Source of the DNA: an uncultured Chloroflexia bacterium
GTDB taxonomy: Bacteria > Chloroflexota > Limnocylindria > Limnocylindrales > CSP1-4
Direction: 5' to 3'
Assembly (NCBI GenBank): GCA_963845925.1
Contig: CAWJUA010000022.1
Span: 145,863-209,862, forward strand
DNA length: 64,000 nucleotides
Below the pieces are notes generated by a model. That model saw only the letters and a program-made list of their open reading frames with translations, was not told where the DNA came from and did no database searches. This document shows positions 6,588-62,966 of the stretch, piece by piece. Each line of letters opens with the position of its first letter. Position 1 is the first letter of the stretch. A program made the translations under genes and the position numbers.

Positions 6588-6711
6588 CCCCTCGCCGCGC
6601 CTCGCAGGACACGTGAGTGCGCCGGCCCGGGTGTCCGGACCGGCGCGCCCGCGACCACGCCGGTGGGGGAAACCGGGGGCCGCGGGGGATGAATGGCGCG
6701 AAGTGCCCTGG

Positions 6712-8314: not shown

Positions 8315-8421
8315 GCAGCGCGAGTCGCGTCGCCCTCGCCCGACCGGGCGTCAAAGGGCGCGGCAGGCGGAGTACGGCGCGGGCGCCTCGGAGCGAGCGC
8401 GGCGCGCCCGCGCCCCAGCGG

Positions 8422-8613
8422 CTACGCAAAGATCGAGGTCTGGCGGGGAAGGACCTGGATCGTCCGGCGGCTGGACCGCTCGATGATCGCCGGGTCGCTC
8501 GCCACGCGGGCGACGACGCCGAGGATCGTCTGGTAGCGGTCGGGCCGATCGACGCAGATCCGGAACGCCCGGATCGCCGGCTGCGGCTGCGACGGGAGGT
8601 GGTGGCTGTCCAT
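8422..8613 (-). CDS. Small hypothetical protein (about 63 aa)
   Basis: MDSHHLPSQPQPAIRAFRICVDRPDRYQTILGVVARVASDPAIIERSSRRTIQVLPRQTSIFA has balanced composition and high GC3. Competing ORFs here are R/S/P junk. Confidence 0.3.
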   Translation of the reverse strand: MDSHHLPSQPQPAIRAFRICVDRPDRYQTILGVVARVASDPAIIERSSRRTIQVLPRQTSIFA

Positions 8614-8818
8614 GGCCCACAGCATCGACCCGTCGTGCGTCGGGCCGTATCAACGGCAGGAGTCAATCGCCCGGGACGTCGGCGGTAGCGCCCGATTGGT
8701 CACATGACGTAGGACTCGGCGGGACTCGTCCGGCCGCAGACGCGCGGAGGCCCCGGTCCGCCCCGCCGCATCGCGGGTCGGCCGGGGCCATGAGGTTCCC
8801 GGTTGTTCCGGCCTCGGT

Positions 8819-8949
8819 CTAGGCGAACGTGGCCTGGGCCACGATCCCGAGGATCGAGAGCAGGATCATCAGCAGGAGCAGGGACCCGATGAAGGCCCCG
8901 CTCTGTCGCTGGACGTCGTTGATGTCGATCAACGGTGTCGATGCGAACA
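8819..8949 (-). CDS. Possible tiny single-TM membrane peptide (about 40 aa) downstream of the MFS gene
   Basis: GTG/TTG-initiated ..LIDINDVQRQSGAFIGSLLLLMILLSILGIVAQATFA*. A GC-rich inverted repeat (GGCCCCGG...CCGGGGCC) lies just upstream at ~8745-8790. Confidence 0.25.
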
Positions 8950-9194
8950 CGTCGTGCCTCCTTCCGGCCTGTGCCTGCGAGCGGCCGGGCTGGCCGCCGT
9001 TGCCAACACCGTAGGCGCGGCGGGCTCGGCAGCCAGTCGGCGGGCGTCGCCTCGAGCCGCTCGGCGAACGACCGCTCGGGGACTGGACGGATGTCGGGAG
9101 ACGGCGAACGCGGCGCCGCCGGCGCCCGGTGCCCGGAGGGGTGGGAGATCCCTCCGTGGCGACCGGCGCCGGCGGGTGCCGGAGAGGCCGCGGC

Positions 9195-10547: not shown

Positions 10548-11217
10548 CGGATGCCTCCGGGTTGGTCGTCGTCGATTCCGAGGGGTAGATCGCGAGCAGG
10601 TAGCCGAACGGGACGGCTCCCGGCTCGACCTTGGAGGGATCGTCGGTGTCGAACTCCTCGAGGAGCTCGCGAAGCCGTCGGCGGAGCTCGGCGGCCCGGT
10701 CGGGGTGGAGCATCGTCAGGCCCCGGACGAGCAGCTCGCGGAGCGGGTCGTCCTCGGACTTGACCATGCCGCTCGCGAGTCCCCGTTCGATCTCGTCACG
10801 TACCGAGTCGAAGACGACCGCGAGGACGTCGTGAACGCTGCTCCGGACGTCGGCGCCGGCGCCCGAGAGCAGGGACCGGTCGAGCCGGATGGACATCGCG
10901 CTGATGCGGTAGCTGGTCTCGATGATCCCCGAGACGACGCGCGTGCCGGCGATACGGATGAGGTCGCGCTCCTCGAGGATGTTGATGTGGTGGTAGAGCT
11001 TCGTCGTGTTCGTGCCGAGGGCCTTCGCCAGGCGCTTGACCGTCCAGGCCTCGTCCGCCGCGGTGACCATCGTCTCGAGGATCCGGAGGCGGACCGGGTC
11101 GGAGATCGCCTTGAGCGTCTCGACGTCCGAGATCACGCGCTCGGCGAGCGGCTCGAAGGGCTCGACATCCTCGCCGCTGCCCGTTGCCGCCGCGCTCACC
11201 GCTGCCTGATCGTTCAT
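10540..11217 (-). CDS. ArsR-family (HTH_20-like) transcriptional regulator, co-transcribed with the MFS transporter
   Basis: HTH ISDPVRLRILETM...VKRLAKALGTNTTKLYHHINILEERDLI. ATG at 11217 with AGGAGC SD. The track ORF extends to a TTG at 11238. Confidence 0.8.
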   Translation of the reverse strand: MNDQAAVSAAATGSGEDVEPFEPLAERVISDVETLKAISDPVRLRILETMVTAADEAWTVKRLAKALGTNTTKLYHHINILEERDLIRIAGTRVVSGIIETSYRISAMSIRLDRSLLSGAGADVRSSVHDVLAVVFDSVRDEIERGLASGMVKSEDDPLRELLVRGLTMLHPDRAAELRRRLRELLEEFDTDDPSKVEPGAVPFGYLLAIYPSESTTTNPEASDD

Positions 11218-11230
11218 TCCGCTCCTATCA

Positions 11231-11246
11231 TTCAACAATCGTTGAA
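11231..11246. promoter_or_regulatory. Perfect 6-4-6 palindrome TTCAACaatcGTTGAA, candidate autoregulatory operator
   Basis: Lies 14 nt upstream of the ArsR-type regulator ATG (minus strand) and overlaps its 5' UTR. ArsR-family repressors bind palindromes of this kind. Confidence 0.4.
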
Positions 11247-11537
11247 CGTACAGTAGCGGCTAACAAGCAGATGTCAAGCCCTGGGCGGCTGCTTGTCGGC
11301 GTTGGGCACCGGAATTCCGCTGGGAGCGGCCAAACCCGGGGTAACCGGCCAATAGGGCCTCCCGACCCGGGCGGTTTCGGGCGAGCGCGTGCTCAGCCGA
11401 ACGGCGGAGCGCCCGCGCGAGGGCCCTGGGCCGACCGTATCGCCCTCCAAGGCCCCGAATTTGCCGGTGGGAGCGGAATTGGCGTCGCCAAGGCGGAACC
11501 AGTCGGCGTCCGCGAGTACGCGGCCGGCCCCCGCCGC

Positions 11538-14500
11538 TCAGCCTGGCGCGGCCGCGAAGCTCCCCGGCGAGCTGGCACGGGCCCCGGCGCCACTCCCCGT
11601 CGACCCCGGGAACGGTGCCGCCTCGACCGAGATCTCCTCCATCTTCGCCGCGTAGAACCCGTAGCGCCGGCGCGCCTCGCCGTGGCGTCCGGCCGCGACC
11701 AGCGCGGCGACCAGTCCCAGGTGGGCGCCCTCGTCGTACGGGTCGCGCTCGAGGATCCGGAGGTAGTAGCGGGTCGCGCCGTCGGCGTCGCCGTCCACCG
11801 CGGCGGCCTCGGCCAGCGACCGGGCGATCGAGATGTACGTCGCCTGGGCCTCCTCGCGCAGCGCCGACCGCCCAGTCCTCGTACGGGTCCTCCTCGAGGA
11901 AGTCGCCGCCGTACAGCGCCTCGGCCGTCTCCAGCTTCGACCGCGCGGTCCCCGCGTCGCCCGATGCGGGCCAGCCGTGCGGCCGCCGCCGCCTCGACGA
12001 GGAACGCCTCGACGTCGAGCTCGAGGTGGTCGAGGTCGAGCGCGATCGAGCCCTTGTCGGCCGGCACGAAGTACTCGGCCGGGTAGCGCTTGTCCGGGTC
12101 GAGGACGGACCGGACCGTGGCCAGCGCGACCGACAGCCGGTTGCCGAGCGGCTCGGGGTCGTCGTCCGGCCAGAGCAGCTCGAAGAACGTGTCGCGGGTC
12201 GTCGGCCGGCCGCGCCGCGCGACGAGGATCTTCAGCAGGTCGCGGGCCTTCTTCGACTGCCACGCCGTCGTCGGGACGGGCATCGCCGTCGCGGACGAGC
12301 CGGAACCGCCCGAGCGACTGGATCCGGAGCGTCGGCCGCGCCGCGCGGTCGTGATCGCCTCGACGATCTCGTCCGCGTCGGCGGCCGGCCCGCGGGCGCC
12401 CATCGAGCGGAAGGCCCGCTCCGCCTCGATCGCGGCGTCCCGCCCCGCGTCCCCGCCGGCGATCCGGGCGAACACGAGCCGGTTGCGGGCGTGGCCGTAC
12501 GGCGCCGGCGAGCCGGCACCAGATCCGAGGCGGCCTCGTCGACGAGCGCCGAGCGCCTCGTCGGGGTCGAGCGCGGTCAGCGCCGCCAACTCGAGCGACG
12601 CGGCCATCCCCGGATCGTCGCGGCGCGCCCGCGACACCTCGATCGCCTCGCGTGCGCGACGCTTCGGCCGCCTCGCGGTCGCCGAGGGAGAGCGCGACCC
12701 GCGCCGCGCCGAGCAGGACCGTCACGGCCGCGACGTCCCGGCCGATCGCCATCGCCCGCTCGGACGAGCTCGGCGGCCTGGGCCGGGTCGTCGAACACGA
12801 TCGTCTGGGCGAGCCCGATCAGCGCCGGCGCGAGGGCCTGGCTGTCGTTCGCGTCGCTCGCCGCGCGGACCGCGTTCTCGAACGCCGCCCGGGCGAGGAA
12901 CCCGTCGCCGCGCAGCGCGTGCATCGAGCCCTCGCGGGTCAGCGCCAGTGCCACGGACGGCGACCCGATCCGCTCGTAGATCGCGCGGGCCGCGGTGAAG
13001 TCGGCCATCGCCTCCTCGAACCGGCCGATGCCCTGCTTGGCCCGGCCGCGGTTGACGAGCGCCCGGGCGTGGAACGCGGAGAAGCCGACCGTGTCGGCGT
13101 GGCGGACGGCCTCGTCGAGGATCTCGAGGGCCGGCCTCGAACTGGCCGCGCTCGACCTCGAGCGCGCCGCGCGCGTTGCGGATCCGGGCGACCTGGAGCG
13201 CGTCGCCCGCGCGGTCCGCGGCCACGAGCGCGGCCGCGTAGTCGGACGACGCGCGCGAGGGATCGTTCGCGAGCTCGTGGAGCTGGCCCATCGCGGTGTG
13301 CGCGGCGGCCATCGCCCGCGGGTCGTCGCAGGCGACCGCCAGCGCGACGGCCTTCTCCGCCGCGACCCGGCTCGCCTCGACGTCGCCGCGGTGGGCGTGG
13401 GCCGAGGCGATCCACGCCTCGAGCAGCGCTTCGTCGGCCGGCTGGCTGCCGTCGACCTCGGCCCGGGCGTAGATCGCGAGGGCCTCGCCGTAGGCGCCGC
13501 GGACGCCGTGGACCACGCCCATGCGCCACGCGGTCGCCGCGTCGAGTCGCCCATCCGGCCCGACCGCCCGGCCGAACGCGGCGAGCGCCTCGCGCCACTC
13601 CCCGCGGGCCAGGCACGCCTCGCCGAGCGCCCGCTCGATCGCCGGCTCGCGGAGCTCGATCGGCACGAGCGCCGTCGCCTCGACGACCTGGCGCGTGGCG
13701 CCGCGCAGGACGAGCTCGCCGCCGTGGCGGCCGAGGAACCGGGCCAGCGCCGCCGGATCGTCGGCCTCGACGAACGAGGCCAGCGCCGCCTCGAGCCGGC
13801 CCTCGCCCTCGAACCAGCCGGCCGCCGCGTGGTGGAGGTCGCGGATCTCGGCCGGCGACAGCGGCAGCCGGGCCAGCGTGTACTCCCGGATCAGCCCGTG
13901 CAGCGAGAACCAGCCGGCCTCGCCCGGCAGCGGTTGGAGGAACAGCGCCCGCTTCGCGAGCTCCTCGAGCGTGTGGGCCGGGTTCGGCACGCCGATCGCC
14001 GCCAGCAGCGGCGCCGAGAACCGGTCGAAGTGGACCGCGCTCCTGACCAGCGCCCGGGTGTCGTCGGTGGCGTTCGCGACGACCTCCTCGGCGAGGTACG
14101 CGAAGATCGGGCCCTCCGGACGCTGGAGACGATCGAGGACCGCTTCGCGGTCGCCGCCGGGCGCGTTCCGATACGCCTCGAGCGCGAGGCGGACGGCCGC
14201 CGGCCAGCCGCCGGTCGCGACGTGGATCCGCGTCGCCGCGACGTCGTGCAGGTCGGCGTGATCGCGGTCGTCGCCGAGCAGGGCGTGGAGCAGCTCGTGG
14301 ATCTCGTCGGCCGAGAAGGCGAGCGCGGTCCCACCCAGGTCGAGCACCTGGCCCTGGCCCCGCAGCCGCTCGATCGCGAACGGGACCTCCGACCGGGACG
14401 TGACGAGGACATGGAGCCCGGCCGGAGCGAGCCGGACGAGCGCCTCGACGAAGCGGAGCGAGCCGGACGCCCCGGCGAGGACGTGGAGGTCGTCGAGGAC

Positions 14501-52287: not shown

Positions 52288-53103
52288 CTAAGCCGCCGTC
52301 TCCGAGGCGACCGGTCCGACGCGGATCGAGACCACCTCGGTCGGCAGCGCCTTGCCCTTCAGATCGAGCGATCGCCGCTCGAGCGCGGGGTCCAGGCCGG
52401 CGGCCGCGGCCGCTGGAGTCGTCACGAGGATCTCGCCGGCGCGAGCGGTCGAGGCCAGGCGGGCCGTCGTGTTCATCGCGTCGCCAACGGCTGTCAGCTG
52501 GGTCCCGCCGCCCTCGCCAACCGCGCCGAACCAGGTCAGTCCGGTGTGGACGCCGGCGCCCAGCGGGACCCACGGCCCGGCGGGATCGTCGTGGCCGACC
52601 GCGACGAGGAGTGCCCTGGCGGCCTTCACCGCCTGCTCGGCGTGGTTCGACCCGGTGATCAGCGGGAAGAACAGCGCGACAAGCTCGTCACCGACGAACT
52701 TGTCCAGGCTGCCGTCGTGAGCGAAGACGACCCGCGTCGCGACGTTGTAGAAGCGGTCGAGCAGGGCCCGGAACTCCGTCGGCGACAGGTCCTCGGCGAT
52801 CGTCGTCGAGCCGCGGATATCCGCGAACAGCATCGACGCCTCGATCTCCGCGCCGCCGTGGTGGGTCGAGATGAACTCGAAGCACTGGTTGCACGTGTTG
52901 GGGTTCTGTGGAGCGCGGCGCTTGCCGATCACTCGCATCGCCGCGCCGCCGGGGCCAGTGAACGGGGCGGCGCAGAGGTGGCAGCGCGGCTCGGACGGCA
53001 AATGCTTGAACACGATCCGCAGGCGGCGCTCAAGCGTGTCGCCGTTCGTGAGGAAGTTCCGCCAGTAGTCCTCGCCGTAGACGCGCGGCGACTCAGCTGG
53101 CAT
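52288..53103 (-). CDS. Class III adenylate/guanylate cyclase with an N-terminal Cys4 zinc-ribbon
   Basis: Cyclase homology domain (FADIRGSTTIAEDL, FVGDELVALF, VGDAMNTTARLAS). N-terminal CHLC...CNQC. Confidence 0.8.
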   Translation of the reverse strand: MPAESPRVYGEDYWRNFLTNGDTLERRLRIVFKHLPSEPRCHLCAAPFTGPGGAAMRVIGKRRAPQNPNTCNQCFEFISTHHGGAEIEASMLFADIRGSTTIAEDLSPTEFRALLDRFYNVATRVVFAHDGSLDKFVGDELVALFFPLITGSNHAEQAVKAARALLVAVGHDDPAGPWVPLGAGVHTGLTWFGAVGEGGGTQLTAVGDAMNTTARLASTARAGEILVTTPAAAAAGLDPALERRSLDLKGKALPTEVVSIRVGPVASETAA

Positions 53104-54150: not shown

Positions 54151-56142
54151 ATGGGTGCGACCGCGCCGGGGGTCCGCGACGAGGCCCGCTACGACTATGC
54201 GGCGATGTCGCCGGCGACGGTCACCGACGCGACCGACGCGGCGCTCGCCGAAGCCGAGCGCTTGATCGAGGCCGTCGTCAGCGCGCCGGACCCGCGGACG
54301 TTCGACTCCACGATCCGGCCGCTGGCCGCCGCCGCGGCGGTCGTGTGGGCGGCCGATGGCGTGGGCTCGAGCATCGGCTACGTCCACCCCGACGCGGCGG
54401 TCCGGGACGCGGCGAACGCCGCCGAGGAGCGCACCCAGAAATGGCGGGCGGGTCTGGCCCGGCGCGACGACCTGGCGGCCGCGATCCTCGCCTACGCCGG
54501 CACCGACGAGGCGGCATCGCTCGACGGATCGCGCCGCCAATCGGTCGACCTGTGGCTCCGCGACATCCGGCGAGCCGGGCACGGCCTCCCGCCCGAGCAG
54601 CGCGAGGAGTTCGCCGCCCTCAACGACCGGATCGCCGACCTCTGCGTCGCGTTCGGCCGGAACCTCGGCGACTGGCACGACGACATGGTCCTGGGCGAGG
54701 TCGACCTGGTGGGGCTGCCGCAGACATTCGTCGACCGACTGCCTGCTGGCCCGGAGCCCGGGAGCCGCCTCCTCGCCGCCGGATACGCGACGACCTTCGC
54801 GTTCATCGAGCAGTCCCCCCGGCGCGATCTTCGCGAGATCGCGTTCGCCAGGTACTACAGCCGAGCCGCCGCGCTCAACGCCCCGATCCTCGCCGAGATC
54901 GTCGACGCTCGCCGGCGCGCCGCATCGATCGTCGGCGCCGACTCGTGGAGCCAGTTCGCGAACGAGGCCCGGATGTCCGGCGGCCGGGCGGAGGTCATGG
55001 CCTTCCTCGAGGGCCTCATCGGGCCGCTCCAGTCACTCGCCGCCGTCGAGCAGGCCGCGATGCTCGAGCAGCTGCCCGCCGACGACCCTGACGCCGTCCT
55101 GCGCGCTTCGGACTGGATCTACCTCCACGAGCGCCAGCGAGAGTCGGTCGGCGTCGACTTCGAGCGGCTCGCCGAGTACTTCCCGGTCGACGGCCTGCTC
55201 GAGCGGATGATCGACCTGCTGAGCGACGTGTTCGGGCTCGCCATCTCAGCGCTGCCGGACGCGTCGGTCTGGCACCCGGACGTTCGCGTCTTCCGCATCG
55301 ACGACGCCGCCACCGGCGAGCATCTGACCGACGTCTACCTCGACCTCTTCAGCCGCGACGGCAAGCGGCCCGGCGGCTGGATGCAGTCGCTGCGCCTGCC
55401 GGACAACACCCCGGGCCGGCCGCGACGGCCCGCGGTGATCCAGCTCGTCCTGAACTTCGCGGCGCCGACCGGGACCGGCCCGACGCTCCTGCGCCACGAC
55501 GACGTCGCCGGGCTGATCCACGAGTTCGGTCACGTGCTGGAGTTCGGGCTTGCCCGGACCGACGGGGCAATGGTGACCGAGAGCTGGACGGAGATCGACT
55601 TCGTCGAGGCGCCGTCGCAGATCATGGAGCACTGGGCGTGGTCGCCGGCGGTCGTCCAGCGGCTCGGCCGCCATCACGCGACGGGCGAGCCGCCGCCGGA
55701 CGAGCTCGTCGCCGGGCTGCCCGCGGCCCGGCAGCTGAACATCGGCACGCAGACGCTCTTCTTCTTCATCTTCCGGGCCCTCCTCGACCAGTACCTGCAC
55801 GGCCCGGAGCCGGTCGATGCGATGGACGCGTACCGGCGCGCGTACGCGGTGACCGGCTTCCCGTTCATGGAGGGCACGTTCCAGCCGGGAACCTTCGACC
55901 ACATCACGGGGATCTACGACGCCGGGTTCTACAGCTACATCTGGGCCCAGGTCTTCGGCGACGACATGTTCAGCGCGTTCCTGGACGGCGGGCTGCTCTC
56001 AGCCGATGTGGGTGCGCGGTACCGGCGCGAGGTCCTCGAACCCAGCTGGGGCGTGCCCGGCCGGCGGCGGGTCGAGAACTTCCTTGGCCGGCCGCCGTCG
56101 GACCGGGCGTTTCTGGAGCGGCTCGGGATCGCCGACGGTTAG
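54151..56142 (+). CDS. M3-family zinc metallopeptidase (oligopeptidase A / peptidyl-dipeptidase Dcp-like)
   Basis: HEFGH zinc motif (GLIHEFGHVLEF) with a downstream Glu. 663 aa. Confidence 0.85.
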   Translation: MGATAPGVRDEARYDYAAMSPATVTDATDAALAEAERLIEAVVSAPDPRTFDSTIRPLAAAAAVVWAADGVGSSIGYVHPDAAVRDAANAAEERTQKWRAGLARRDDLAAAILAYAGTDEAASLDGSRRQSVDLWLRDIRRAGHGLPPEQREEFAALNDRIADLCVAFGRNLGDWHDDMVLGEVDLVGLPQTFVDRLPAGPEPGSRLLAAGYATTFAFIEQSPRRDLREIAFARYYSRAAALNAPILAEIVDARRRAASIVGADSWSQFANEARMSGGRAEVMAFLEGLIGPLQSLAAVEQAAMLEQLPADDPDAVLRASDWIYLHERQRESVGVDFERLAEYFPVDGLLERMIDLLSDVFGLAISALPDASVWHPDVRVFRIDDAATGEHLTDVYLDLFSRDGKRPGGWMQSLRLPDNTPGRPRRPAVIQLVLNFAAPTGTGPTLLRHDDVAGLIHEFGHVLEFGLARTDGAMVTESWTEIDFVEAPSQIMEHWAWSPAVVQRLGRHHATGEPPPDELVAGLPAARQLNIGTQTLFFFIFRALLDQYLHGPEPVDAMDAYRRAYAVTGFPFMEGTFQPGTFDHITGIYDAGFYSYIWAQVFGDDMFSAFLDGGLLSADVGARYRREVLEPSWGVPGRRRVENFLGRPPSDRAFLERLGIADG

Positions 56143-56154: not shown

Positions 56155-56985
56155 CTACGGCGCGCGGACCGTCTCGGCAAGCCGGATCGCGTCGTCCACC
56201 GGGAAATCGGCCTCGTTGACGATGAGCCCCATCCCGTCCCCACCCACCGTCCACACGAGGGCGAGCTCGCCGTCGGGTGGATTCCGGTACAACGTCGCCG
56301 GCGCGCCGTTCACCTGGACGCCGCTGAGCTCGTCGCCGCCGGTCACGTTCGCCGGGCTGTCGAACGACTGGTAGAGGGCGATCTGGCCCTTGCTCGTCGC
56401 CGGGTCGGGTGGGCCGCCCTTCGTCCAGGTCCGCTGCCACCGCCCGCCCGGGCTCTCCTCGGTGTCCCGTTGCGCGGCGAGCGTCCAGCCGTCCGGCACG
56501 TCGATCGTCGCGAGCCCGTCGGGTGGCCGGACGAAGTGGACGTAGCCTGCAAGGTCCTCGACCCGGAACCCCTGAAACGGCCGATCGAGGCGAATTGCGA
56601 TCGACTGACCGTAGCCGACGAGGTCGCACGCGAATGGAATCTGCGGCGTGGGCGTCGGCGGCGGGGCGGGCGTGTCGTCGACGACCTTCACCCGGAGGAC
56701 GCCTTCTGACTCCCGGGCCCAGCCGAAGTAGTGGTTCGTGCACGGGTCGCTCGGGTCGTAGTCCTTGCCGCCGATGAACGTGACGGTCAGGGTCGATCCG
56801 TCTCCGCTGATCGCGGCGGTGTCGATCCGCACCGGCAGGCCAGGCGGCGGGTCGATGCTTGTCGCGGGCTCACTCGTCCCCTCGCCCGCGGAGCCGATCG
56901 CGCTCGGCGGGACCGTGGGCGACGGCGAGCCGCACGCCGCGACGGCGAGGACCAGGGCGGCCAGCGCCGCGGCGCGCCTGATCAC
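56155..56985 (-). CDS. Lipoprotein of unknown function
   Basis: MIRRAAALAALVLAVAACGSPS lipobox. Last gene of the hydrolase-VOC-lipoprotein operon. Confidence 0.6.
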   Translation of the reverse strand: MIRRAAALAALVLAVAACGSPSPTVPPSAIGSAGEGTSEPATSIDPPPGLPVRIDTAAISGDGSTLTVTFIGGKDYDPSDPCTNHYFGWARESEGVLRVKVVDDTPAPPPTPTPQIPFACDLVGYGQSIAIRLDRPFQGFRVEDLAGYVHFVRPPDGLATIDVPDGWTLAAQRDTEESPGGRWQRTWTKGGPPDPATSKGQIALYQSFDSPANVTGGDELSGVQVNGAPATLYRNPPDGELALVWTVGGDGMGLIVNEADFPVDDAIRLAETVRAP

Positions 56986-56990
56986 GGGGT

Positions 56991-57383
56991 CTAGGCAGTA
57001 TCGCCGGAGCCGCCGCCCATGCCCTCAGGCTGCATCGGGCTCATCAGCTGGAAGTAGTTGCCATCCGGATCTGCGAGCGTGGCGATCGACGAGCCCGGCG
57101 CGCCCTCGAACTCGTACGGCTCGCGGACGACGATGGCTCCGGCGGCCTTCATCCGCTCGAACTCGCCCGCGACGTCGTCGCTCTCGATGTTCCAGATGAG
57201 GCGTCCGGGACTGACGTTGCTGCCGCTGACCTCGGAGTGCGGTCCGACGCTCATGAAGCCCGTCCCGATCAGCCAGCCCGCGTAGCCACCGTCCGCCATC
57301 ATCGGCTCGCCCAGCAACTTCGTGTAGTAGTCGACGAGCCGCTGCGGGTCGGCCGAGCCGATGAGGATGCTGTTGAAGTTCAT
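56991..57383 (-). CDS. VOC / glyoxalase family protein
   Basis: VOC fold pattern (DPQRLVDYYTKLLG..GW..G...PGRLIWNIESDDV..EFERMKAAGAIVVREP..ADPDGNYFQLM). The ATG overlaps the upstream stop (ATGA). Confidence 0.7.
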   Translation of the reverse strand: MNFNSILIGSADPQRLVDYYTKLLGEPMMADGGYAGWLIGTGFMSVGPHSEVSGSNVSPGRLIWNIESDDVAGEFERMKAAGAIVVREPYEFEGAPGSSIATLADPDGNYFQLMSPMQPEGMGGGSGDTA

Positions 57384-60151
57384 CGTCGCCTCCTTGGGAC
57401 GGTCATTCTCCCGCCGATGGGTGGCGGCGTCTCAGGCGCCCGCCGGCCGCGGCGGTTCGTTCGTCGTGATGATCGGCGGGGCGTCGCTCGCCGAGCCCCC
57501 GCGGCCGGCCCGCCGCCGTCGACGTCGATGTCGTTGTCGACGATGTCCTTGGCGAGGCTGAACAGGACGATCGCGACGACCGCCCCGACCGTCGCCACGA
57601 GCCACGCGTCGCGCGAGACGCCCCACCAGCTCGAGCCCTCCGAGCCGAGCGCCACGATCGACGTCGCGGCGAACACGAGCAGCGTGAGGATCAGCCCCAG
57701 GACGTAGGGCCACGTCCGGACGGGCGACGTCGTGGGTGCTCGACGGAGGCCGCGCCGCTCGCGGCCGTCCCAGATGTCCCAGCGCCAGGTGCCCAGCCGG
57801 GCCAGCAGGTTGAAGAGAACGAGGACCGCGATCGCTCCGATGACGAACTGGTGGTTCGCGAGGTGGTTGTGGCCACTGTCGATGACCACGAGCACGATCG
57901 ACAGGGCGATCAACAGCATGCCGATGAGGACGGTGCCGAGGAACGCCGCCGAGACGAAGATCCCGACGCTCCTCGTGACATGGCCCATCTGGCCCTGCCC
58001 CAGCTTGGTTCCGCGCAGGAAGCCGCGCGCCGCGCGACCGGCGCCGCCGACGGCTGCAGCGAAGAGCCCGGCCCCGATCAGGAGCACGAACGGCCCCAGC
58101 GAAAGCCCCTCCCAGATCGCCGCCCGCTGCTCGGCGGTCAGCAGGATGAAGAACCCCGCGACGACCATCGCGAACGCCCCGATGCCGACCGCGTAGTCGA
58201 CGACCAGCAGGATGAACCGCGGCCCCGCCCCACGCTCCGAGTTCGACCACAACCGGTCGATCTGGCCCGGCAACAACGCGTTCGCGAGGAGCGCGATGAG
58301 GATCGCCTCGAGGGCCCACGTGCCCAGCGTGTAGAGCGGCGTCAGCAGGGAGTCGAACTGGAGGGCATTCGGGATGAGCGGGACGCCCTCCGTCGAAAGC
58401 CCGGCGATCCAGTTCACGAACCCGGCCGCCGCCTTGTCGACGATCTCGTTCCCGGGAATCAGCCCGAACAACTGCAGCGCGAGCTTTCCGAGCGTCGGGA
58501 CGAAGCCGGGCTCGCTGACCGTCGCCGCCGCGACGATCGCGACGAGCGGCAGCGACAGCAGTGCCCGCCGCCAGAGCGCGAGCAGGCCGACCCGCTCCTT
58601 TCGGCGGGACCGGAGGTAGGACTCGGCGCCGTCGCTGTAGAACCGCGAAGCGCCGCGGTCGCCGGTCGGGACGTCGAGCTCGCGCAGCAGCGGCACCACG
58701 AAGTGCTCGTCGTTGTCCCAGTAGCCGCCGTGGTCCTCGAGCAGCGACATCCGGTTGTAGACACGTTCGGCGGTGAAGCGCGGCCACGTGTCCTTGGTGA
58801 AGGTCTGCGGGAGCTGCGGCCGGCCCGACGGTGCGGGGTCGTCGGTGCCCCAGAAGTCGCGCCACTCGAGGTTGGGCTGGAGCCGGCCGATGTCGCCGGC
58901 CATCCGGTCGCCCGGCGGCGGCGTCGGTGGGGGATTGTCCGGGTCCGCGTCGTTCAGCCGCCAGCCGAGGTTGAGCGCCTCGCCGATCGTGATCAGCTTC
59001 TCGACCCGGAGGCCGGCGAAGGCCGGGTCGGTGAGCGTCGTGAGGCTGACCATCGTGCCGCCGGAGTGGGCAATGATCACGACATCCCGGCAGCCGTAGG
59101 CCCGGAGCGCCTTGATCGTCGAGAGCAGCCGGTACCGGACGTTCGCGCTCTGGCCGGCGTCACGGAGCAGCGTCCGGGCACCGCCGAACCAGTCGGTCAG
59201 GAAGCTCGAGGCCAGTCGCAGCACGACGGCATCCCGCAACGGCCCGAACGGGATGACCTTCGCGATTGCCAGCAGCAGGACGAAGAGCAGCAGGATGAAC
59301 GACGTCAGGACCGACACGATCGGCTGGAGGCTGATCCGGCCGAGGATCGCCCAGCGCCCGCTGAGCTTGTTCTCCTGGATGCCCTGGACGATTCGGCCGA
59401 CGCCGCCCTGCTCGCCGAGCCAGCTGATCATCGTCGCCAGTGACGGCGCCCGGACCTCCGACGCCCACCACGCCTCGGTGAACACCCAGGTCCGCTCCTT
59501 CGCCCGCGGGTCGTCGTCCGCGACGTCGCTCCGCCGCGGAACGCCGACCTGAATCACCGGGAACGTCTCGCCCGAGAAGTCGATGTTCGACTTGATCACC
59601 GGGTCGCGGACGGCCCCCGCGCTCGCGAGCGGCACGACGAGGCCCGGGTCCGCGGCCGGCGCGTCGCGCAGCAGCTGGATGATCGGGCGGGTCCAGTCGA
59701 GCAGGGTCTGGCCGGCGAGCTGCGGTCCGATGCCGTGGACGACGACGATCCCGGTCCGCTCCGGCCGCCAGGCGAAGTCGCGCTGCTTCTCGGGCCTGGC
59801 CGCGTTCGCGTCGGCGAGGGCCTTCGCGTATTCGGCGGCCGGCGGCGCCTTGACGGGCGGCAGCGAGCGGTTGCGCTTGTCGTCGATCGCCGGGTCGGCG
59901 GCCCGCTGGCGGCGGAGCGCGGAGGACGCCGTCGACCCGAGCGACGGCGCGGACGGGGCCGTGCGCTTCTCGCCGATCGGGAACTGCCAGGGCCGGTTGA
60001 CCTCGACGGCGGGCATCGGCTCCGGGAACCGGGCGCGCTCGCCCTCGAACAGCTCGCCGGTCGCGAGCTGCGTGTCGAGCTCCTTGTCGAGGGCGAGCCG
60101 GAGGGCGCGGTCGATCCCCGAGTCCGACAGGCCCGATCCGGTGAGGCTCAT
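57380..60151 (-). CDS. Large (923 aa) polytopic membrane protein with an N-terminal alpha/beta-hydrolase (lipase/esterase-like GHSxG) domain
   Basis: HG oxyanion box (GIVVVHGIGPQ). Nucleophile elbow (VVIIAHSGGTMVSL). A TM hairpin is inserted in the hydrolase domain and ~10 further TMS follow. A basic Arg-rich tail ends the protein. I recognise no named family. Confidence 0.7.
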   Translation of the reverse strand: MSLTGSGLSDSGIDRALRLALDKELDTQLATGELFEGERARFPEPMPAVEVNRPWQFPIGEKRTAPSAPSLGSTASSALRRQRAADPAIDDKRNRSLPPVKAPPAAEYAKALADANAARPEKQRDFAWRPERTGIVVVHGIGPQLAGQTLLDWTRPIIQLLRDAPAADPGLVVPLASAGAVRDPVIKSNIDFSGETFPVIQVGVPRRSDVADDDPRAKERTWVFTEAWWASEVRAPSLATMISWLGEQGGVGRIVQGIQENKLSGRWAILGRISLQPIVSVLTSFILLLFVLLLAIAKVIPFGPLRDAVVLRLASSFLTDWFGGARTLLRDAGQSANVRYRLLSTIKALRAYGCRDVVIIAHSGGTMVSLTTLTDPAFAGLRVEKLITIGEALNLGWRLNDADPDNPPPTPPPGDRMAGDIGRLQPNLEWRDFWGTDDPAPSGRPQLPQTFTKDTWPRFTAERVYNRMSLLEDHGGYWDNDEHFVVPLLRELDVPTGDRGASRFYSDGAESYLRSRRKERVGLLALWRRALLSLPLVAIVAAATVSEPGFVPTLGKLALQLFGLIPGNEIVDKAAAGFVNWIAGLSTEGVPLIPNALQFDSLLTPLYTLGTWALEAILIALLANALLPGQIDRLWSNSERGAGPRFILLVVDYAVGIGAFAMVVAGFFILLTAEQRAAIWEGLSLGPFVLLIGAGLFAAAVGGAGRAARGFLRGTKLGQGQMGHVTRSVGIFVSAAFLGTVLIGMLLIALSIVLVVIDSGHNHLANHQFVIGAIAVLVLFNLLARLGTWRWDIWDGRERRGLRRAPTTSPVRTWPYVLGLILTLLVFAATSIVALGSEGSSWWGVSRDAWLVATVGAVVAIVLFSLAKDIVDNDIDVDGGGPAAGARRATPRRSSRRTNRRGRRAPETPPPIGGRMTVPRRRR

Positions 60152-60265: not shown

Positions 60266-60664
60266 GTGGCAGCCCCCAACGTCGCCGCCTGGCCGAAGGC
60301 CATCAGCGCGATCACGCTCTTCGTCGAGGACCTCGCCGCGACGAGGGCGTTCTACCTGGAGGTATTCGGCCTGCCGGTCGCGTTCGAGGACGACGCCTCC
60401 GCGGTCTTCATGTTCGGCGAGACGGCGATCAACCTCCTCAAGGTCGGCGAGGCGCCGGAGCTGATCGCGCCCGCGCCGGTCGCCCCGCCGGAGGCCGGCT
60501 CGCGGTTCCAGTTCACGATCTCCGTCGACGACGTCGACGCGATGTGCGACGAGCTCCGACGCCGCGGCGTCGAGCTGCTCAACGGCCCGATGGACCGGCC
60601 GTGGGGCATCCGGACCGCGACGTTCCGCGACCCGGCCGGGCACATCTGGGAGATCGCGAAGTAG
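60266..60664 (+). CDS. VOC / glyoxalase family protein
   Basis: AGGAGG SD, then GTG at 60266. ITLFVEDLAATRAFYLEVFGLPV...GHIWEI. The upstream part of the track ORF is junk. Confidence 0.65.
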   Translation: MAAPNVAAWPKAISAITLFVEDLAATRAFYLEVFGLPVAFEDDASAVFMFGETAINLLKVGEAPELIAPAPVAPPEAGSRFQFTISVDDVDAMCDELRRRGVELLNGPMDRPWGIRTATFRDPAGHIWEIAK

Positions 60665-60691: not shown

Positions 60692-61087
60692 ATGCAGCGT
60701 CACATCGTCCGCCCGGAAGGGCTCGCCGCGACCAGCGGCTACAGCCACGTCACGGAGTTCAGCGGCCGGCTCGTCGCGGTGTCGGGCCAGGTCGCGTGGG
60801 ACGCCGATGGCAACGTCGTCGGCCGTGGCGACGTCGAGGCCCAGGCGCGGCAGGTCTTCGCGAACCTCGGGACCGCCCTCGTGGCCGCCGGCACGGATCT
60901 CGCCCACGTCGTCAAGCTGACGGTCTTCCTGACCGACATCGGCGACGTCGCGACGGTGCGCCGCGTTCGCAACGAGTTCGTCGACCCGGCGTCGCCGCCG
61001 GCGAGCACGCTCGTCCAGGTCGTTGCGCTGGTCGACCCGGCGCTCAAGATCGAGGTCGAGGCCCTCGCGGTCGTCGAGGACGCCTAG
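60692..61087 (+). CDS. RidA (YjgF/TdcF) family reactive-intermediate deaminase
   Basis: Full-length RidA pattern (SGYSHVTEF..LVAVSGQVAWD..QARQVFANLGTALVAAGTDLAHVVKLTVFLTD..VR..F..PASTLVQV.AL). GGAGGAG SD. Confidence 0.85.
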   Translation: MQRHIVRPEGLAATSGYSHVTEFSGRLVAVSGQVAWDADGNVVGRGDVEAQARQVFANLGTALVAAGTDLAHVVKLTVFLTDIGDVATVRRVRNEFVDPASPPASTLVQVVALVDPALKIEVEALAVVEDA

Positions 61088-61518: not shown

Positions 61519-62283
61519 CTAGAGCGGGACGTCGAAGGGGCCGAGGAGCGGTCGTACCGACCGGGTGGCCGGCGGGCCGGCGACCGGCAGGACGAGCACG
61601 TACTGGCCGTCCTTCTCGACGTAGCGGACGGCGGGCCGGCGCCACGGCAGGAAGTCGGCCGCGAGCTTCGACACCGGGATCACGCTGTCCGGTCGCTGGC
61701 CGGCGCCCCAGATCGAGCTCGTCCGCGGATACCACGGGTCGACGACCCGGATGCTGTTCACCGTGAACCGCTCGCTCGTCGCCGGATTCGCGGTCGCCTC
61801 GAAGCCCGACATCACCCAGGCATGGGCGCCACGCCACATGAGCAATCCGACCGGCCGGCGGGTCAGCGCCATCGCCCGCACGGCCGTCGCGATGGCCTCG
61901 CCGCGTGAACGCACGGAGACGACGACGTACGGGCCCAGCCCCAGCTCGTTCAGCGCACCGGCCCAGCCCTCGGGCTCCGACCCCGGCCCGACGAGGCGGT
62001 CGCTCGAGAGCGAGCGGGCCAGGCGGTCGAGCTGGCGCTGCGAAGGCACGGCCGCGTCACGGGCGTAACCAGGCGTGATCAGGTTCGCCATCGTCTGGAT
62101 CGCCGCGGGGACGCACCAGTCGGCGCGGGCCTGCGAGACGAAGTCGCCGGGCTCGTAGAGATCGACGGCGAACGCGGTCCGCGCCCCGGCCGGCGCCGGC
62201 ACCGATACGAGGCCGGCGGCCGCGCAGACCAGGGCGGCGACGACGATCCGCCAGGCCGGCCGTCGCGCCGCGATCACTCCCAT
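61519..62283 (-). CDS. Secreted hypothetical protein
   Basis: Signal peptide (WRIVVAALVCAAAGLVSVPAPAGA), then a ~230-aa domain with protein-like composition. The longer track ORF begins upstream at an Arg-rich start. Confidence 0.5.
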   Translation of the reverse strand: MGVIAARRPAWRIVVAALVCAAAGLVSVPAPAGARTAFAVDLYEPGDFVSQARADWCVPAAIQTMANLITPGYARDAAVPSQRQLDRLARSLSSDRLVGPGSEPEGWAGALNELGLGPYVVVSVRSRGEAIATAVRAMALTRRPVGLLMWRGAHAWVMSGFEATANPATSERFTVNSIRVVDPWYPRTSSIWGAGQRPDSVIPVSKLAADFLPWRRPAVRYVEKDGQYVLVLPVAGPPATRSVRPLLGPFDVPL

Positions 62284-62297
62284 TCGCGGAGTGGGCG

Positions 62298-62966
62298 TCA
62301 GCCCGCGCGTAGCCGTTCGAGGCCGTCGAGGATCAGGTCGAGGCCGAAGGCGAATTCGACGTCGTCGTCGCACCGGCCAAGCACGCCTTCATGGCTGACC
62401 GACCCAGCGAGCTCCGCGATCCGCGGGAATTGACCGCTGAGGTACCGCGCTGCGATCGCGGCCTCCTCCGCCGTCGGGTCGGGCCCGGTCTCCTCGAACA
62501 GGTCCTGGGCGAAGCCGAAGATCCGGCTGCCGAGCAGGTGCAGCGAATGGTGCGCGAGCTCGAGCGAGAAGCCGCCGTCGCGCAGCGCTCCGAGGACGAA
62601 CTCGATGTGGACCATGCTGGCCGGTCCGCCCGTGCCGCGGTCCTCGATGACCCGGCGCGCCCACGGATGGCGGAGCATGACCGCCCTCGCGCTCATCGCC
62701 TGGGCGCGGACGGTGGCCTTCCAGTCGTCGCCCGGGGCGGGATGGTCGATCTGGCGAAGGATCGCCTCGAGCAGGCCATCGAGGAGGTCGTCCTTGTTGC
62801 GGACATGGCGATAGAGCGCCATCGCGTCGACGCCGAGCTCCTGGCCGAGCTTGCGCATGCTCAGAGCCTCGACGCCGCCTCGATCCGCGAGCTCGATCGC
62901 CACGCGGAGGACGCGCTCGCGCGTGAGCGGGGTTCGGCGCTGGGCTGGACTGGCTTCGCGGATCAC
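62298..62966 (-). CDS. TetR/AcrR-family transcriptional regulator
   Basis: HTH (RERVLRVAIELADRGGVEALSMRKLGQELGVDAMALYRHV). GTG at ~62966. Divergent from a DUF385 reductase gene. Confidence 0.8.
   Translation of the reverse strand: MIREASPAQRRTPLTRERVLRVAIELADRGGVEALSMRKLGQELGVDAMALYRHVRNKDDLLDGLLEAILRQIDHPAPGDDWKATVRAQAMSARAVMLRHPWARRVIEDRGTGGPASMVHIEFVLGALRDGGFSLELAHHSLHLLGSRIFGFAQDLFEETGPDPTAEEAAIAARYLSGQFPRIAELAGSVSHEGVLGRCDDDVEFAFGLDLILDGLERLRAG

What the first reader, a model, noticed from the sequence alone, without database searches (positions are those of the whole stretch)
56155..60151. Operon encoding a 923-aa polytopic membrane alpha/beta-hydrolase with a VOC enzyme and a lipoprotein
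The first gene has a lipase/esterase-type catalytic core (HG box VVVHGIGPQ and GHSxG-like IIAHSGGT). A transmembrane hairpin is inserted in the core and roughly ten further TM helices follow, ending in an Arg-rich tail. This is an intact ORF with no frameshift. It is translationally coupled (ATGA) to a VOC-family gene and followed by a lipoprotein gene. I cannot assign it to a named membrane-hydrolase family, although PGAP1-like, LCAT-like and DUF families are conceivable. A membrane-embedded lipid or cell-envelope remodelling hydrolase is a plausible function.
Basis: partly seen in the sequence, partly recalled or inferred. Interest (0 to 1): 0.55.

Follow-up and report, generated by a model that had tools for sequence, protein, structure and literature searches.

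The report
Undescribed membrane-embedded serine hydrolase family
The large gene encodes a real membrane-embedded lipase-like serine hydrolase from a family nobody has described (about 2,000 sequence clusters, mostly in uncultured Chloroflexota), but its arginine-rich tail and its overlap with the next gene come from a one-base frameshift, and the three-gene "operon" is only a local arrangement.

Summary

The window has a 1-nt deletion after codon 886 relative to its close relatives. Residues 887-923, the Arg-rich tail, are therefore an out-of-frame read-through of the ancestral stop and spacer, and this also creates the ATGA overlap. The VOC and lipoprotein neighbours occur only in a narrow clade.

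The most likely function is a lipid-ester hydrolase or acyltransferase acting at the inner leaflet. The substrate is unknown.

The parts
57380..60151 (-). Gene for the polytopic alpha/beta-hydrolase as read (923 codons plus stop). Codons 1-886 are in the evolved frame.
   Evidence: ORF list. GC3 is 0.95. Full-length homologs are 890-960 aa. AF2 model has pLDDT 86.5 and pTM 0.88.
59777..60151 (-). N-terminal domain (residues 1-125), found only in the long subfamily. It is folded, soluble and of unknown role.
   Evidence: Present in the >=889-aa members and mostly absent (0-31% occupancy) in the 580-800 aa members. pLDDT is 91-98 over residues 11-60. No hydrophobic segment.
59366..59776 (-). Hydrolase core, first half (residues 126-262). 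It holds strand beta3 (132-139), helix A, extra strands, strand beta4 (220-226) and the invariant TEAWWA motif (225-230).
   Evidence: Secondary structure of the model. E226 and W229 are present in 91 of 91 sequences.
59732..59737 (-). H139-G140, the HG oxyanion-hole motif directly after strand beta3.
   Evidence: H139 is present in 89 of 91 sequences and G140 in 91 of 91. Its position follows strand 132-139.
59156..59365 (-). Membrane helical hairpin inserted between beta4 and helix B (residues 263-332). It consists of a hydrophobic helix (266-299), a tip with invariant P301, and an amphipathic return helix (309-330) carrying the conserved DWFG(D/G)xRxLL motif.
   Evidence: Peak hydropathy is 3.04 at residues 278-296. 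Helices are from the model. The hairpin is present in all size classes. P301 is in 91 of 91 sequences, G323 in 90, Q334 in 90.
58652..59155 (-). Hydrolase core, second half (residues 333-500). It holds beta5, the nucleophile elbow, beta6, beta7, beta8 and helix F.
59057..59071 (-). Nucleophile elbow A361-H362-S363-G364-G365. Ser363 is the predicted nucleophile.
   Evidence: Ser363 is present in 90 of 91 sequences; the single exception looks like a one-residue alignment shift. hhalign puts LipA Ser77 on S363. It follows strand 356-362.
58838..58840 (-). Asp438, the predicted catalytic acid after beta7 (WxDFWxxxDP motif).
   Evidence: Present in 91 of 91 sequences. hhalign puts LipA Asp133 on D438.
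58730..58732 (-). His474, the predicted catalytic base in the loop after beta8 (DHGGYWxNDE motif).
   Evidence: H474, Y477, N480 and E482 are each present in 91 of 91 sequences. Its position follows strand 459-464. It is not covered by the LipA alignment.
57515..58633 (-). C-terminal membrane domain (residues 507-879). Eight TM helices at about 523-545, 603-626, 643-670, 686-715, 721-757, 764-787, 813-835 and 847-867, plus two short amphipathic helices (550-584) in the first outer loop.
   Evidence: Hydropathy. Model helices. K+R distribution in the loops. Only TM1, TM6 and TM7 are present in all size classes.
57740..57790 (-). Conserved cytoplasmic motif after TM6 (residues 788-804, TWRWDIWDGRERRGLRR). 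It is the only strongly conserved element of the membrane domain.
   Evidence: W794, D795 and E798 are invariant in A1. In A2, W794 is in 84 of 91 sequences and D795 in 77 of 91. Occupancy is 100% in every size class.
57493..57494 (-). Site of the 1-nt deletion relative to close relatives (GGGACTGCGGCC in L085, GGGGCT-CGGCG in the window), after codon 886.
   Evidence: DNA alignment.
57383..57493 (-). Out-of-frame read-through tail (residues 887-923, Arg-rich). It crosses the ancestral stop codon, the 48-nt spacer and the ribosome-binding site of the VOC gene. It is not an evolved feature.
   Evidence: pLDDT is below 50 over residues 880-923.
57432..57491 (-). Ancestral reading frame of the tail (ASDAPPIITTNEPPRPAGA plus the TGA stop at 57432-57434).
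   Evidence: Translation. Identical to the tail of P0362. GC3 is 0.95.
57389..57395 (-). AAGGAGG ribosome-binding site 5 nt upstream of the VOC start codon. It is conserved in L085.
   Evidence: Sequence. Alignment.
56991..57383 (-). VOC (glyoxalase/bleomycin-resistance/dioxygenase superfamily) gene, 130 aa.
   Evidence: Pfam Glyoxalase_6 at 2.3e-10 and Glyoxalase at 5.5e-07, both above their cut-offs. Only weak matches to glyoxalase I structures. It is syntenic with the M3 peptidase gene rather than with the hydrolase gene in the 70-78% identity relatives.
56155..56985 (-). Lipoprotein gene, 276 aa. It has a signal peptide, a disordered linker and a beta-rich domain with a Mog1/PsbP-like fold.
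56932..56943 (-). Lipobox V-A-A-C (residues 15-18). Cys18 is the predicted lipidation site.
   Evidence: Sequence. A lipobox is present in 23 of 25 homologs.

Best explanation
The gene at 57380..60151 encodes a membrane-integral serine hydrolase of the alpha/beta-hydrolase fold. It belongs to a family that has not been described.

Shown:
- The fold is alpha/beta-hydrolase.
- The HG oxyanion motif (H139-G140) follows beta3, the nucleophile elbow AHS363GG follows beta5, Asp438 follows beta7 and His474 follows beta8. All are conserved across the family.
- A helical hairpin is inserted straight after beta4. By the architecture of this fold, that is on the same edge of the sheet as the active site.
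- The domain is followed by 8 TM helices. Only TM1 and the TM6-WRWDxWDxRERR-TM7 unit are universal.

Inferred:
- The catalytic domain sits on the cytoplasmic face with its active-site side against the membrane.
- The hairpin and the TM bundle form the lateral path by which a membrane-resident acyl ester (a phospholipid, lysolipid or other lipid-linked molecule) reaches Ser363.
- Ser363, activated by His474 and Asp438, forms an acyl-enzyme that is resolved by water, or possibly by an acceptor.

Other conclusions:
- The Arg-rich tail and the ATGA overlap with the VOC gene result from a 1-nt deletion after codon 886. This is most likely an assembly indel, possibly a recent mutation. The evolved protein is about 906 aa and ends ...ASDAPPIITTNEPPRPAGA.
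- The VOC and lipoprotein genes are probably co-transcribed here, but this arrangement belongs to one narrow clade and is not part of a family-wide system.

Rough confidence by step: fold and triad 0.9; cytoplasmic orientation 0.7; frameshift origin of the tail 0.95; lipid-ester substrate 0.45.
For: - Catalytic residues: G140, D438 and H474 are in 91 of 91 sequences, S363 in 90 of 91 and H139 in 89 of 91, at 22-63% identity.
- Topology: none of 54 members has a hydrophobic segment before the core. K+R in the loops is 2.6, 5.5 and 7.5 (inside) against 2.0 in 53 aa, 1.3, 0.5 and 0.9 (outside).
- Architecture classes: the hairpin, TM1 and TM6-motif-TM7 are universal.
- Family size and anonymity: 2,091 clusters at E<=1e-3, 1,382 at E<=1e-10 and 324 at E<=1e-30. 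No Pfam, NCBIfam, PADLOC or PDB-sequence hit is significant.
- Frameshift.
- Neighbourhood.
Against: - I could not read the model coordinates. The triad geometry, the position of the hairpin relative to the TM bundle and any substrate cavity are therefore untested.
- The hairpin tip carries about 2 K+R per 12 residues. This fits a re-entrant or monotopic hairpin as well as a fully spanning one.
- The return helix is polar (R312, D320, R326, R330).
- No conserved partner gene gives a clue to the substrate.
- The cytoplasmic orientation rests only on sequence rules.
Confidence: 0.55

Rival explanations
1. It is a bacterial PGAP1/Bst1-type enzyme: an extracytoplasmic lipase domain on a polytopic membrane domain that deacylates a lipid anchor on the outer face of the membrane. 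This would be cell-envelope remodelling.
For: - The only Pfam hit is PGAP1, at the nucleophile elbow (E 0.0032). 34 of 54 members give weak PGAP1 hits.
- The overall plan is similar: about 900-1,000 aa, a lipase domain plus a multi-TM domain, and a Ser-Asp-His triad (PMC10761859).
Against: - The score is below the Pfam cut-off (17.7 against 24.3 bits) and covers 38 residues.
- There is no N-terminal TM anchor or signal peptide in any of 54 members, and the positive-inside rule puts the domain in the cytoplasm.
- There is no jelly-roll domain: everything after residue 507 is helical.
- The membrane hairpin is inside the core, which the PGAP1 description does not mention.
Confidence: 0.06
2. It is an acyltransferase rather than a hydrolase. 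The acyl-Ser363 intermediate is resolved by a lipid or other acceptor (in the manner of LCAT/PDAT or mycobacterial Chp1), and the enzyme builds a lineage-specific membrane lipid at the cytoplasmic face.
For: - The catalytic machinery would be the same, and an active site shielded by the membrane favours acceptors other than water (inference).
- Several family-invariant polar residues lie near the active-site loops: E226, Q334, N466, Y477, N480, E482.
- Membrane-associated alpha/beta-fold acyltransferases on the cytosolic face are known, for example Chp1 (abstract of PMC3318749, listed).
Against: - There is no Pfam LCAT hit or any other acyltransferase hit.
- There is no neighbouring lipid-biosynthesis gene.
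- Sequence alone cannot separate this reading from hydrolysis.
Confidence: 0.15
3. The substrate is a protein or peptide rather than a lipid. The enzyme would be a thioesterase or deacylase of acylated membrane proteins, or a serine peptidase acting on membrane proteins.
Against: - The closest motif-level resemblance is to the minimal lipases LipA and PGAP1.
- No peptidase-family HMM matches.
Confidence: 0.1
4. The three genes form one functional pathway: the hydrolase, the VOC enzyme and the lipoprotein act on the same substrate, as the operon reading implies.
For: - The genes are on the same strand with short gaps (48 nt in the ancestral frame, then 5 nt).
- The same order is found in L085 (93% identity) and L090.
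- A lipoprotein homolog lies next to the hydrolase gene in the P0018 contig (54% identity) and in L086, where it is upstream.
- L089 has the order lipoprotein, soluble Abhydrolase_1, Glyoxalase_6.
Against: - Among 80 reference-genome loci of the family, the VOC gene follows the hydrolase in one and the lipoprotein in none.
- In the 70-78% identity relatives, a convergent sigma-70 gene and an F420H2-dependent quinone reductase gene lie between the hydrolase and the VOC gene.
- The lipoprotein also occurs without the hydrolase.
- The lipoprotein is extracytoplasmic, whereas the catalytic domain is predicted to be cytoplasmic.
- Small VOC genes are abundant in these genomes: two flank this gene alone.
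Confidence: 0.1
5. It is a conflict or defence effector: a membrane-disrupting lipase that is activated on infection.
For: - The Cryobacterium homolog lies among IS transposases, a YobI-ATPase gene, an AAA_13/SMC_N ATPase gene and a DEAD/ResIII/restriction-endonuclease gene.
- The P0009 locus has an FRG-domain gene and a weak PycTM hit nearby.
Against: - PADLOC gives no hit.
- The short-form members sit in conserved housekeeping synteny: methylmalonyl-CoA mutase-like, threonine dehydratase-like, thioredoxin-like, ArsR-like and trigger-factor-like neighbours (names assigned by eye from the sequences).
- The window's own neighbours are metabolic.
- There is no adjacent sensor or cyclase partner.
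Confidence: 0.04

Closest known systems
PGAP1/Bst1 GPI inositol deacylase (Pfam PF07819; cryo-EM structures described in PMC10761859)
   Same: It is a lipase-type alpha/beta-hydrolase domain with a Ser-Asp-His triad, mounted on a polytopic membrane domain that hosts it. The total size is similar. The xHSxGG elbow is similar, and it gives the only (sub-threshold) Pfam hit.
   Different: - PGAP1 has an N-terminal TM anchor, a luminal (extracytoplasmic) lipase domain, a two-lobed jelly-roll domain and 10 TM helices.
- This protein has no N-terminal anchor and no beta-sandwich domain.
- It has a membrane hairpin inside the catalytic core, 8 C-terminal TM helices and a predicted cytoplasmic orientation.
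Bacillus subtilis lipase A (LipA, PDB 1i6w/1isp) and the other minimal lid-less lipases of Pfam Lipase_2 type
   Same: It has a minimal alpha/beta core. The motifs are very similar: VMVHGIGG against VVVHGIGP, and IVAHSMGG against IIAHSGGT. hhalign matches Ser77 to S363 and Asp133 to D438. Foldseek gives target TM-scores up to 0.49.
   Different: - LipA is a 181-aa secreted soluble enzyme with no membrane elements.
- The hhalign probability is only 78.6% over 82 columns, and His156 is not covered.
- There is no Pfam Lipase_2 hit.
DDHD-domain intracellular phospholipases A1 (Nir2 DDHD domain, PDB 9jyx) and the DUF915-type 'cell surface hydrolases' (3fle, 3lp5)
   Different: Sequence identity is 13-14% and no HMM matches. 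They are peripheral or soluble proteins without TM hairpins or TM bundles.
Mog1/PsbP-like envelope lipoproteins (RseB/MucB, LpqN, Apa, DcrB, Tsi3, TplEi), compared with the downstream lipoprotein
   Different: There is no sequence-family match. Only about 40% of the protein is aligned. Neither a ligand nor a partner can be inferred.

Membership tests
alpha/beta-hydrolase fold superfamily (serine hydrolases) | Central mostly parallel beta-sheet flanked by helices, detectable as a structural match to known members | tested here: met
alpha/beta-hydrolase fold superfamily (serine hydrolases) | Nucleophile in a sharp elbow (small-x-Ser-x-small) after beta5, acid after beta7, His after beta8, in that order | tested here: met
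   AHS363GG follows strand 356-362, D438 follows strand 429-435 and H474 follows strand 459-464. Conservation is 90, 91 and 91 of 91 sequences. The LipA alignment supports the Ser and the Asp.
alpha/beta-hydrolase fold superfamily (serine hydrolases) | Triad residues within hydrogen-bonding geometry; catalytic activity | not testable with these tools
PGAP1 (Pfam PF07819; GPI inositol deacylase) | Score at or above the Pfam gathering threshold for the PGAP1 domain | tested here: not met
   The score is 17.7 bits against a cut-off of 24.3, covering residues 353-390 only. The best E-value among 54 members is 7e-4.
PGAP1 (Pfam PF07819; GPI inositol deacylase) | N-terminal TM anchor followed by an extracytoplasmic (luminal) lipase domain | tested here: not met
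   None of 54 members has a hydrophobic segment before the core, and the loop charges indicate a cytoplasmic domain. The PGAP1 architecture is taken from PMC10761859.
PGAP1 (Pfam PF07819; GPI inositol deacylase) | Jelly-roll beta-sandwich domain between the lipase domain and TMH2-10 | tested here: not met
   The model has only helices from residue 507 onward, apart from two 2-residue strand marks at 841-846.
LCAT/PDAT-like acyltransferases (Pfam PF02450) | Match to the LCAT family model | tested here: not met
   There is no LCAT hit at E<=1 for the query, and LCAT is not among the 14 families matched by the 54 members.
Lipase_2 / LipA-type minimal lipases | Homology detectable by profile comparison, with the catalytic residues aligned | tested here: inconclusive
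   hhalign gives probability 78.6% and E 1.7e-5 over 82 columns. Ser and Asp are aligned but His is not covered. There is no Pfam hit.
VOC superfamily (second gene) | Match above the Pfam threshold to a glyoxalase/VOC model | tested here: met
   Glyoxalase_6 scores 41.5 bits (cut-off 23.6) and Glyoxalase scores 30.4 bits (cut-off 20.6).
VOC superfamily (second gene) | Specific enzyme identity (for example glyoxalase I or FosA) | tested here: not met
   The NCBIfam equivalog scores are 17-23 bits against cut-offs of 120-250. PDB glyoxalase I matches have E about 1e-4 to 3e-5.
Bacterial lipoprotein (third gene) | N-terminal signal peptide ending in a lipobox [LVI][ASTVI][GAS]C | tested here: met
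   The sequence MIRRAAALAALVLAVAAC|G has VAAC at residues 15-18. A lipobox is present in 23 of 25 homologs.
Anti-phage defence systems (PADLOC-DB) | Match to any model of a known or candidate defence protein | tested here: not met
   None of the three proteins hits any family at E<=0.01.

The most novel reading that the evidence does not exclude
This is the founding example of an undescribed family of polytopic membrane serine hydrolases. The family has about 2,000 sequence clusters, mainly in uncultured Limnocylindria/Chloroflexota, with distant cousins in Actinomycetota. In this reading, membrane hairpins inserted into the loops on the active-site side of a minimal lipase core, together with a conserved TM6-WRWDxWDxRERR-TM7 unit, build an intramembrane substrate path. 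The enzyme would be a cytoplasm-facing bacterial counterpart of PGAP1, evolved independently, that remodels or turns over a lineage-specific membrane lipid.
Probability: 0.3. Interest if true: 0.6.

Novelty: new variant of a known kind. Interest (0 to 1): 0.42.

Why it matters
- Limnocylindria are abundant soil and freshwater bacteria that are represented here only by metagenome-assembled genomes, and their membrane biology is essentially unknown.
- This family has no Pfam, NCBIfam or PDB representative. It puts a lipase-type active site against the inner face of the membrane by an unusual route: a membrane hairpin spliced into the catalytic core. The family is a candidate for a new Pfam/InterPro entry.
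- It is also a tractable target for finding a lipid-remodelling activity. A homolog exists in a cultured Cryobacterium strain, although that homolog is distant.
- The finding also carries a practical warning. An apparently intact ORF, a striking Arg-rich tail and an ATGA overlap were all produced by a single-base indel. That indel could only be seen by comparison with relatives and by codon-position composition.

Tried and rejected
- Sequence search of PDB with the single protein and with the family profile gave only noise in the TM region.
- The Foldseek AFDB50 library was not available. Foldseek against PDB gave no hit at E<=1e-3, and its top-ranked YcjX and PEP-carboxylase hits have rmsd 16-25 A and are spurious.
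- My first clustering of neighbouring ORFs was swamped by spurious ORFs of GC-rich DNA. I redid it with a GC3 filter. The recurring neighbours of the short-form members are housekeeping genes, mostly on the other strand, so they reflect lineage synteny and not an operon.
- PADLOC gave nothing.
- Rfam gave only sub-threshold miRNA noise.
- The promoter and terminator scan found no promoter-like site and one terminator-like site inside the coding region, no more than expected by chance.
- Three literature searches found no description of this family.
- I considered that L090 carries a decayed hydrolase pseudogene. I rejected this because every gene in that locus is split across frames, which indicates an indel-prone assembly.
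- I considered the Arg-rich tail as a positive-inside or nucleic-acid-binding feature. I rejected this because it is out of frame.

Full report
**1. What is in the sequence**

The window has about 72% G+C throughout. Long ORFs in such DNA are not evidence of genes, but these three have coding-type third-position GC of 0.95, 0.92 and 0.91, and all have homologs.

In the sequence as read, the stop codon of the large ORF overlaps the start of the next gene (ATGA), and the lipoprotein gene starts 5 nt after the VOC stop codon.

The unit is bounded downstream by a convergent M3 peptidase gene (54151..56142). Upstream it is bounded by a divergent pair, a second VOC gene (about 60269..60664) and a RidA-family gene (60692..61087).

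**2. The frameshift**

The nine closest homologs (64-93% identity) all carry a short, non-basic C-terminal tail of the canonical type; in the closest one it reads ...DIDVDGGGPAAG-TAASDAPPIITTNEPPRPAGA. The window protein changes to ARRATPRRSSRRTNRRGRRAPETPPPIGGRMTVPRRRR directly after GGGPAAG.

The window still encodes SASDAPPIITTNEPPRPAGA* in another frame, ending at the stop codon at 57432-57434 (this is the end of the ORF 57432..58865).

A DNA alignment with the contig of the 93%-identical relative shows one missing base in the window, between 57494 and 57493 (GGGACTGCGGCC against GGGGCT-CGGCG). The downstream DNA is nearly identical, including the ancestral TGA, the spacer, the AAGGAGG ribosome-binding site and the VOC start codon.

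Third-position GC over the tail is 0.95 in the ancestral frame, the same as the rest of the gene. It is 0.65-0.68 in the frame as read.

The exact 923-aa sequence is on record from a single 240,493-bp contig. Eight other members of its >=90% identity cluster have the canonical tail. One of them (P0362, 906 aa) matches the window's alternate-frame translation exactly. Other members on long ENA contigs are broken into fragments or carry independent frameshifts. A related locus (L090) has every one of its genes split across frames.

My inference is that the deletion is more likely an assembly indel than a real mutation. Either way, residues 887-923 and the ATGA overlap are not evolved features. 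The affected region is a disordered, poorly conserved tail (pLDDT below 50 over residues 880-923), so the enzyme itself is not compromised.

**3. Fold and active site**

An AF2 model built on 54 homologs is confident (pLDDT 86.5, pTM 0.88).

The order of secondary-structure elements is canonical:
- strand 132-139, followed by H139-G140;
- helix A;
- strand 220-226 (beta4);
- strand 356-362 (beta5), followed by S363 and helix C;
- strand 385-389;
- strand 429-435 (beta7), followed by D438;
- strand 459-464 (beta8), followed by H474;
- helix F.

In 91 family members of 22-63% identity, G140, D438 and H474 are invariant. S363 is present in 90 of 91, and the single exception looks like a one-residue alignment shift. 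H139 is present in 89 of 91.

A profile alignment to it puts Ser77 on S363 and Asp133 on D438.

Further family-invariant residues define a family signature near the active-site loops: E226 and W229 in TEAWWA, P301, G323, Q334, N466, Y477, N480, E482 and R520.

I could not read the model coordinates, so the triad geometry is untested.

**4. Membrane elements and topology**

Helices 238-351 are inserted between beta4 and beta5. They include a 34-residue helix (266-299) whose residues 278-296 are the most hydrophobic stretch of the protein. After it come a tip with invariant P301 and an amphipathic return helix (309-330) with conserved polar residues.

In the alpha/beta-hydrolase fold, the loops at the C-terminal ends of the parallel strands carry the catalytic residues and the lids (established knowledge). 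A hairpin emerging after beta4 is therefore on the active-site side, which suggests that the active site faces the membrane (inference).

After helix F come 8 TM helices, plus two short amphipathic helices in the first outer loop.

None of 54 members has a hydrophobic segment before the core. In 31 long-form members, K+R is enriched in the loops predicted to be inside (2.6, 5.5 and 7.5) compared with those predicted to be outside (2.0 in 53 residues, 1.3, 0.5 and 0.9). The predicted topology is therefore N-in and C-in, with a cytoplasmic catalytic domain.

The hairpin tip carries about two positive charges. Whether the hairpin spans the membrane or is re-entrant remains open.

**5. The family**

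A profile search of 1.84 billion representative proteins finds 2,091 clusters at E<=1e-3, 1,382 at E<=1e-10 and 324 at E<=1e-30.

There are three size classes:
- About 580 aa: core, hairpin, TM1, TM6, the WRWDxWDxRERR motif and TM7.
- About 770 aa: these have most of the TM helices but lack the N-terminal domain.
- 889 aa or more: these add the N-terminal domain (residues 1-125) and have 8 TM helices. The window protein is in this class.

In one genome per species (GTDB), 130 relatives were found. The best 80 are all from Chloroflexota/Limnocylindria MAGs, apart from one labelled Patescibacteria. That scan used family-specific motifs, so more distant lineages could have been missed.

A search outward from a distant member reached a hypothetical protein of a cultured Cryobacterium strain. 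It matches the family profile at 99.8% probability with all motifs intact, and it has what looks like a second hydrophobic insertion after beta6.

No member tested reaches any Pfam threshold. Weak hits scatter over PGAP1, DUF900, DUF3530, Abhydrolase_1, Lipase_3 and Palm_thioest. NCBIfam, PADLOC and the PDB sequence searches give nothing significant. Source annotations are 'hypothetical protein' or generic COG labels. Three literature searches found no description of the family.

**6. The 'operon'**

The order hydrolase, VOC, lipoprotein, with the M3 peptidase gene convergent, is shared with the 93% relative. There the gap between the hydrolase and VOC genes is 49 nt and the genes do not overlap. 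It is also shared with L090.

The arrangement differs in other relatives:
- In the 78% and 70% relatives, a convergent sigma-70 gene and an F420H2-dependent quinone reductase gene lie between the hydrolase and the VOC gene. The VOC gene stays beside the M3 peptidase gene.
- The 64% and 49% relatives have unrelated neighbours.
- Among the 80 reference loci, the VOC gene follows the hydrolase in one and the lipoprotein in none.

A lipoprotein homolog does recur next to the hydrolase. It lies directly downstream in the 54% relative and directly upstream in the 78% relative. It also occurs without the hydrolase, once next to an ordinary soluble Abhydrolase_1 gene and a Glyoxalase_6 gene.

I conclude that the three genes are probably co-transcribed in this organism, but that the arrangement belongs to one clade and gives little information about function.

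**7. Most likely mechanism, and its rivals**

Shown: a lipase-type alpha/beta-hydrolase core with a conserved Ser-Asp-His triad and HG motif, integrated into the membrane by an internal hairpin and a TM bundle.

Inferred: the domain is cytoplasmic with its active site toward the membrane. An acyl ester of a membrane-resident molecule enters laterally. Ser363 forms an acyl-enzyme, which is resolved by water or by an acceptor.

I give about 0.45 to a lipid-ester substrate. The rivals are:
- acyl transfer instead of hydrolysis (0.15);
- a protein or peptide substrate (0.10);
- a true three-gene pathway (0.10);
- a PGAP1-type enzyme on the outer face (0.06);
- a defence effector (0.04). This last reading is suggested only by the mobile, defence-like surroundings of the Cryobacterium homolog and by an FRG gene beside one relative. 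It is contradicted by the lack of PADLOC hits and by the housekeeping synteny of the short-form members.

**8. Comparison with known families**

The protein works like PGAP1 in general plan: a lipase domain hosted on a polytopic membrane domain. It fails PGAP1 membership on the Pfam threshold, on orientation, on the N-terminal anchor and on the jelly-roll domain.

At the motif level it is closest to minimal lipases of the LipA type, but homology at family level is inconclusive.

It is a member of the alpha/beta-hydrolase superfamily with an architecture that is absent from the Pfam, NCBIfam, PADLOC and PDB libraries searched and from the papers found. I rate it a new variant of a known kind.

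**9. Verdict**

The genes, the motifs, the hairpin and the polytopic domain are real. The claims of 'no frameshift', an Arg-rich tail and translational coupling are refuted as evolved features.

The protein is a membrane alpha/beta-hydrolase of no named family, but there is no conserved operon, and a role on the cytoplasmic side is more likely than cell-envelope remodelling.

Interest is moderate (0.42). This is a sizeable, wholly uncharacterised enzyme family with an unusual way of embedding a lipase core in the membrane. However, it lies within a very well-known superfamily and I found no evidence about its substrate.

Noticed in passing
window 60269..60664 (+) and 60692..61087 (+): A second VOC gene (Pfam Glyoxalase, 1.6e-21) and a RidA/L-PSP gene (9.2e-32) lie divergently upstream of the hydrolase gene. 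This pair is kept next to the hydrolase gene in the 70-93% identity relatives (L081, L082, L085, L086). It is therefore more stably linked to the hydrolase than the downstream VOC gene is.
   Followed up: partly
L087 (Cryobacterium sp. HLT2-28, SOFH01000022.1) 1-14400; homolog at 6001-8400: The distant actinobacterial homolog P0319 sits between IS110-type and Mutator-type transposase genes, a YobI-ATPase gene, an AAA_13/SMC_N ATPase gene and a DEAD/ResIII/restriction-endonuclease gene. This looks like a mobile or defence island. The protein also has what looks like a second hydrophobic hairpin inserted between beta6 and beta7.
   Followed up: partly
L090 (JGI 3300044699 contig, 75.5 kb), whole locus: Every gene in this locus matches the window proteins in several reading frames: hydrolase, M3 peptidase, upstream VOC, RidA and the 284-aa ORF. 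This indicates an indel-prone assembly rather than pseudogenes. Several members of the hydrolase's 90% cluster on long ENA contigs are likewise fragments (34, 154, 162 and 740 aa).
   Followed up: partly
L089 6001-8230: In a genome that lacks the polytopic hydrolase at this position, the lipoprotein homolog is followed by an ordinary soluble Abhydrolase_1 gene (277 aa) and a Glyoxalase_6 gene (72% identical to the window's VOC). This is the same trio of protein types with a different hydrolase. It could be coincidence or a hint of a recurring association.
   Followed up: no
locus of P0009 (JGI 3300041967, no DNA returned): The 64%-identity relative is directly preceded, on the same strand, by an FRG-domain gene and an unannotated 542-aa gene. 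A weak PycTM hit lies a few kb upstream.
   Followed up: no
window 61519..62373 (-): A 284-aa ORF has no Pfam match but is conserved (77-84% identity) in L081 and L090. Its N-terminus is Arg/Pro-rich and is followed by a hydrophobic segment, so it may be a secreted or membrane-anchored protein.
   Followed up: no
window 52288..53103 (-): A 271-aa protein has a class III adenylate/guanylate cyclase catalytic domain (Pfam Guanylate_cyc, 3.9e-11), preceded by a Cys-rich N-terminal segment that may be a zinc ribbon.
   Followed up: no
window 57740..57790 (-), residues 788-804 of the hydrolase: The motif TWRWDIWDGRERR, on the cytoplasmic extension of TM6, is the only strongly conserved part of the membrane domain. 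It is kept even in the 580-aa minimal forms. It may contact the catalytic domain, but I could not check this without the model coordinates.
   Followed up: partly
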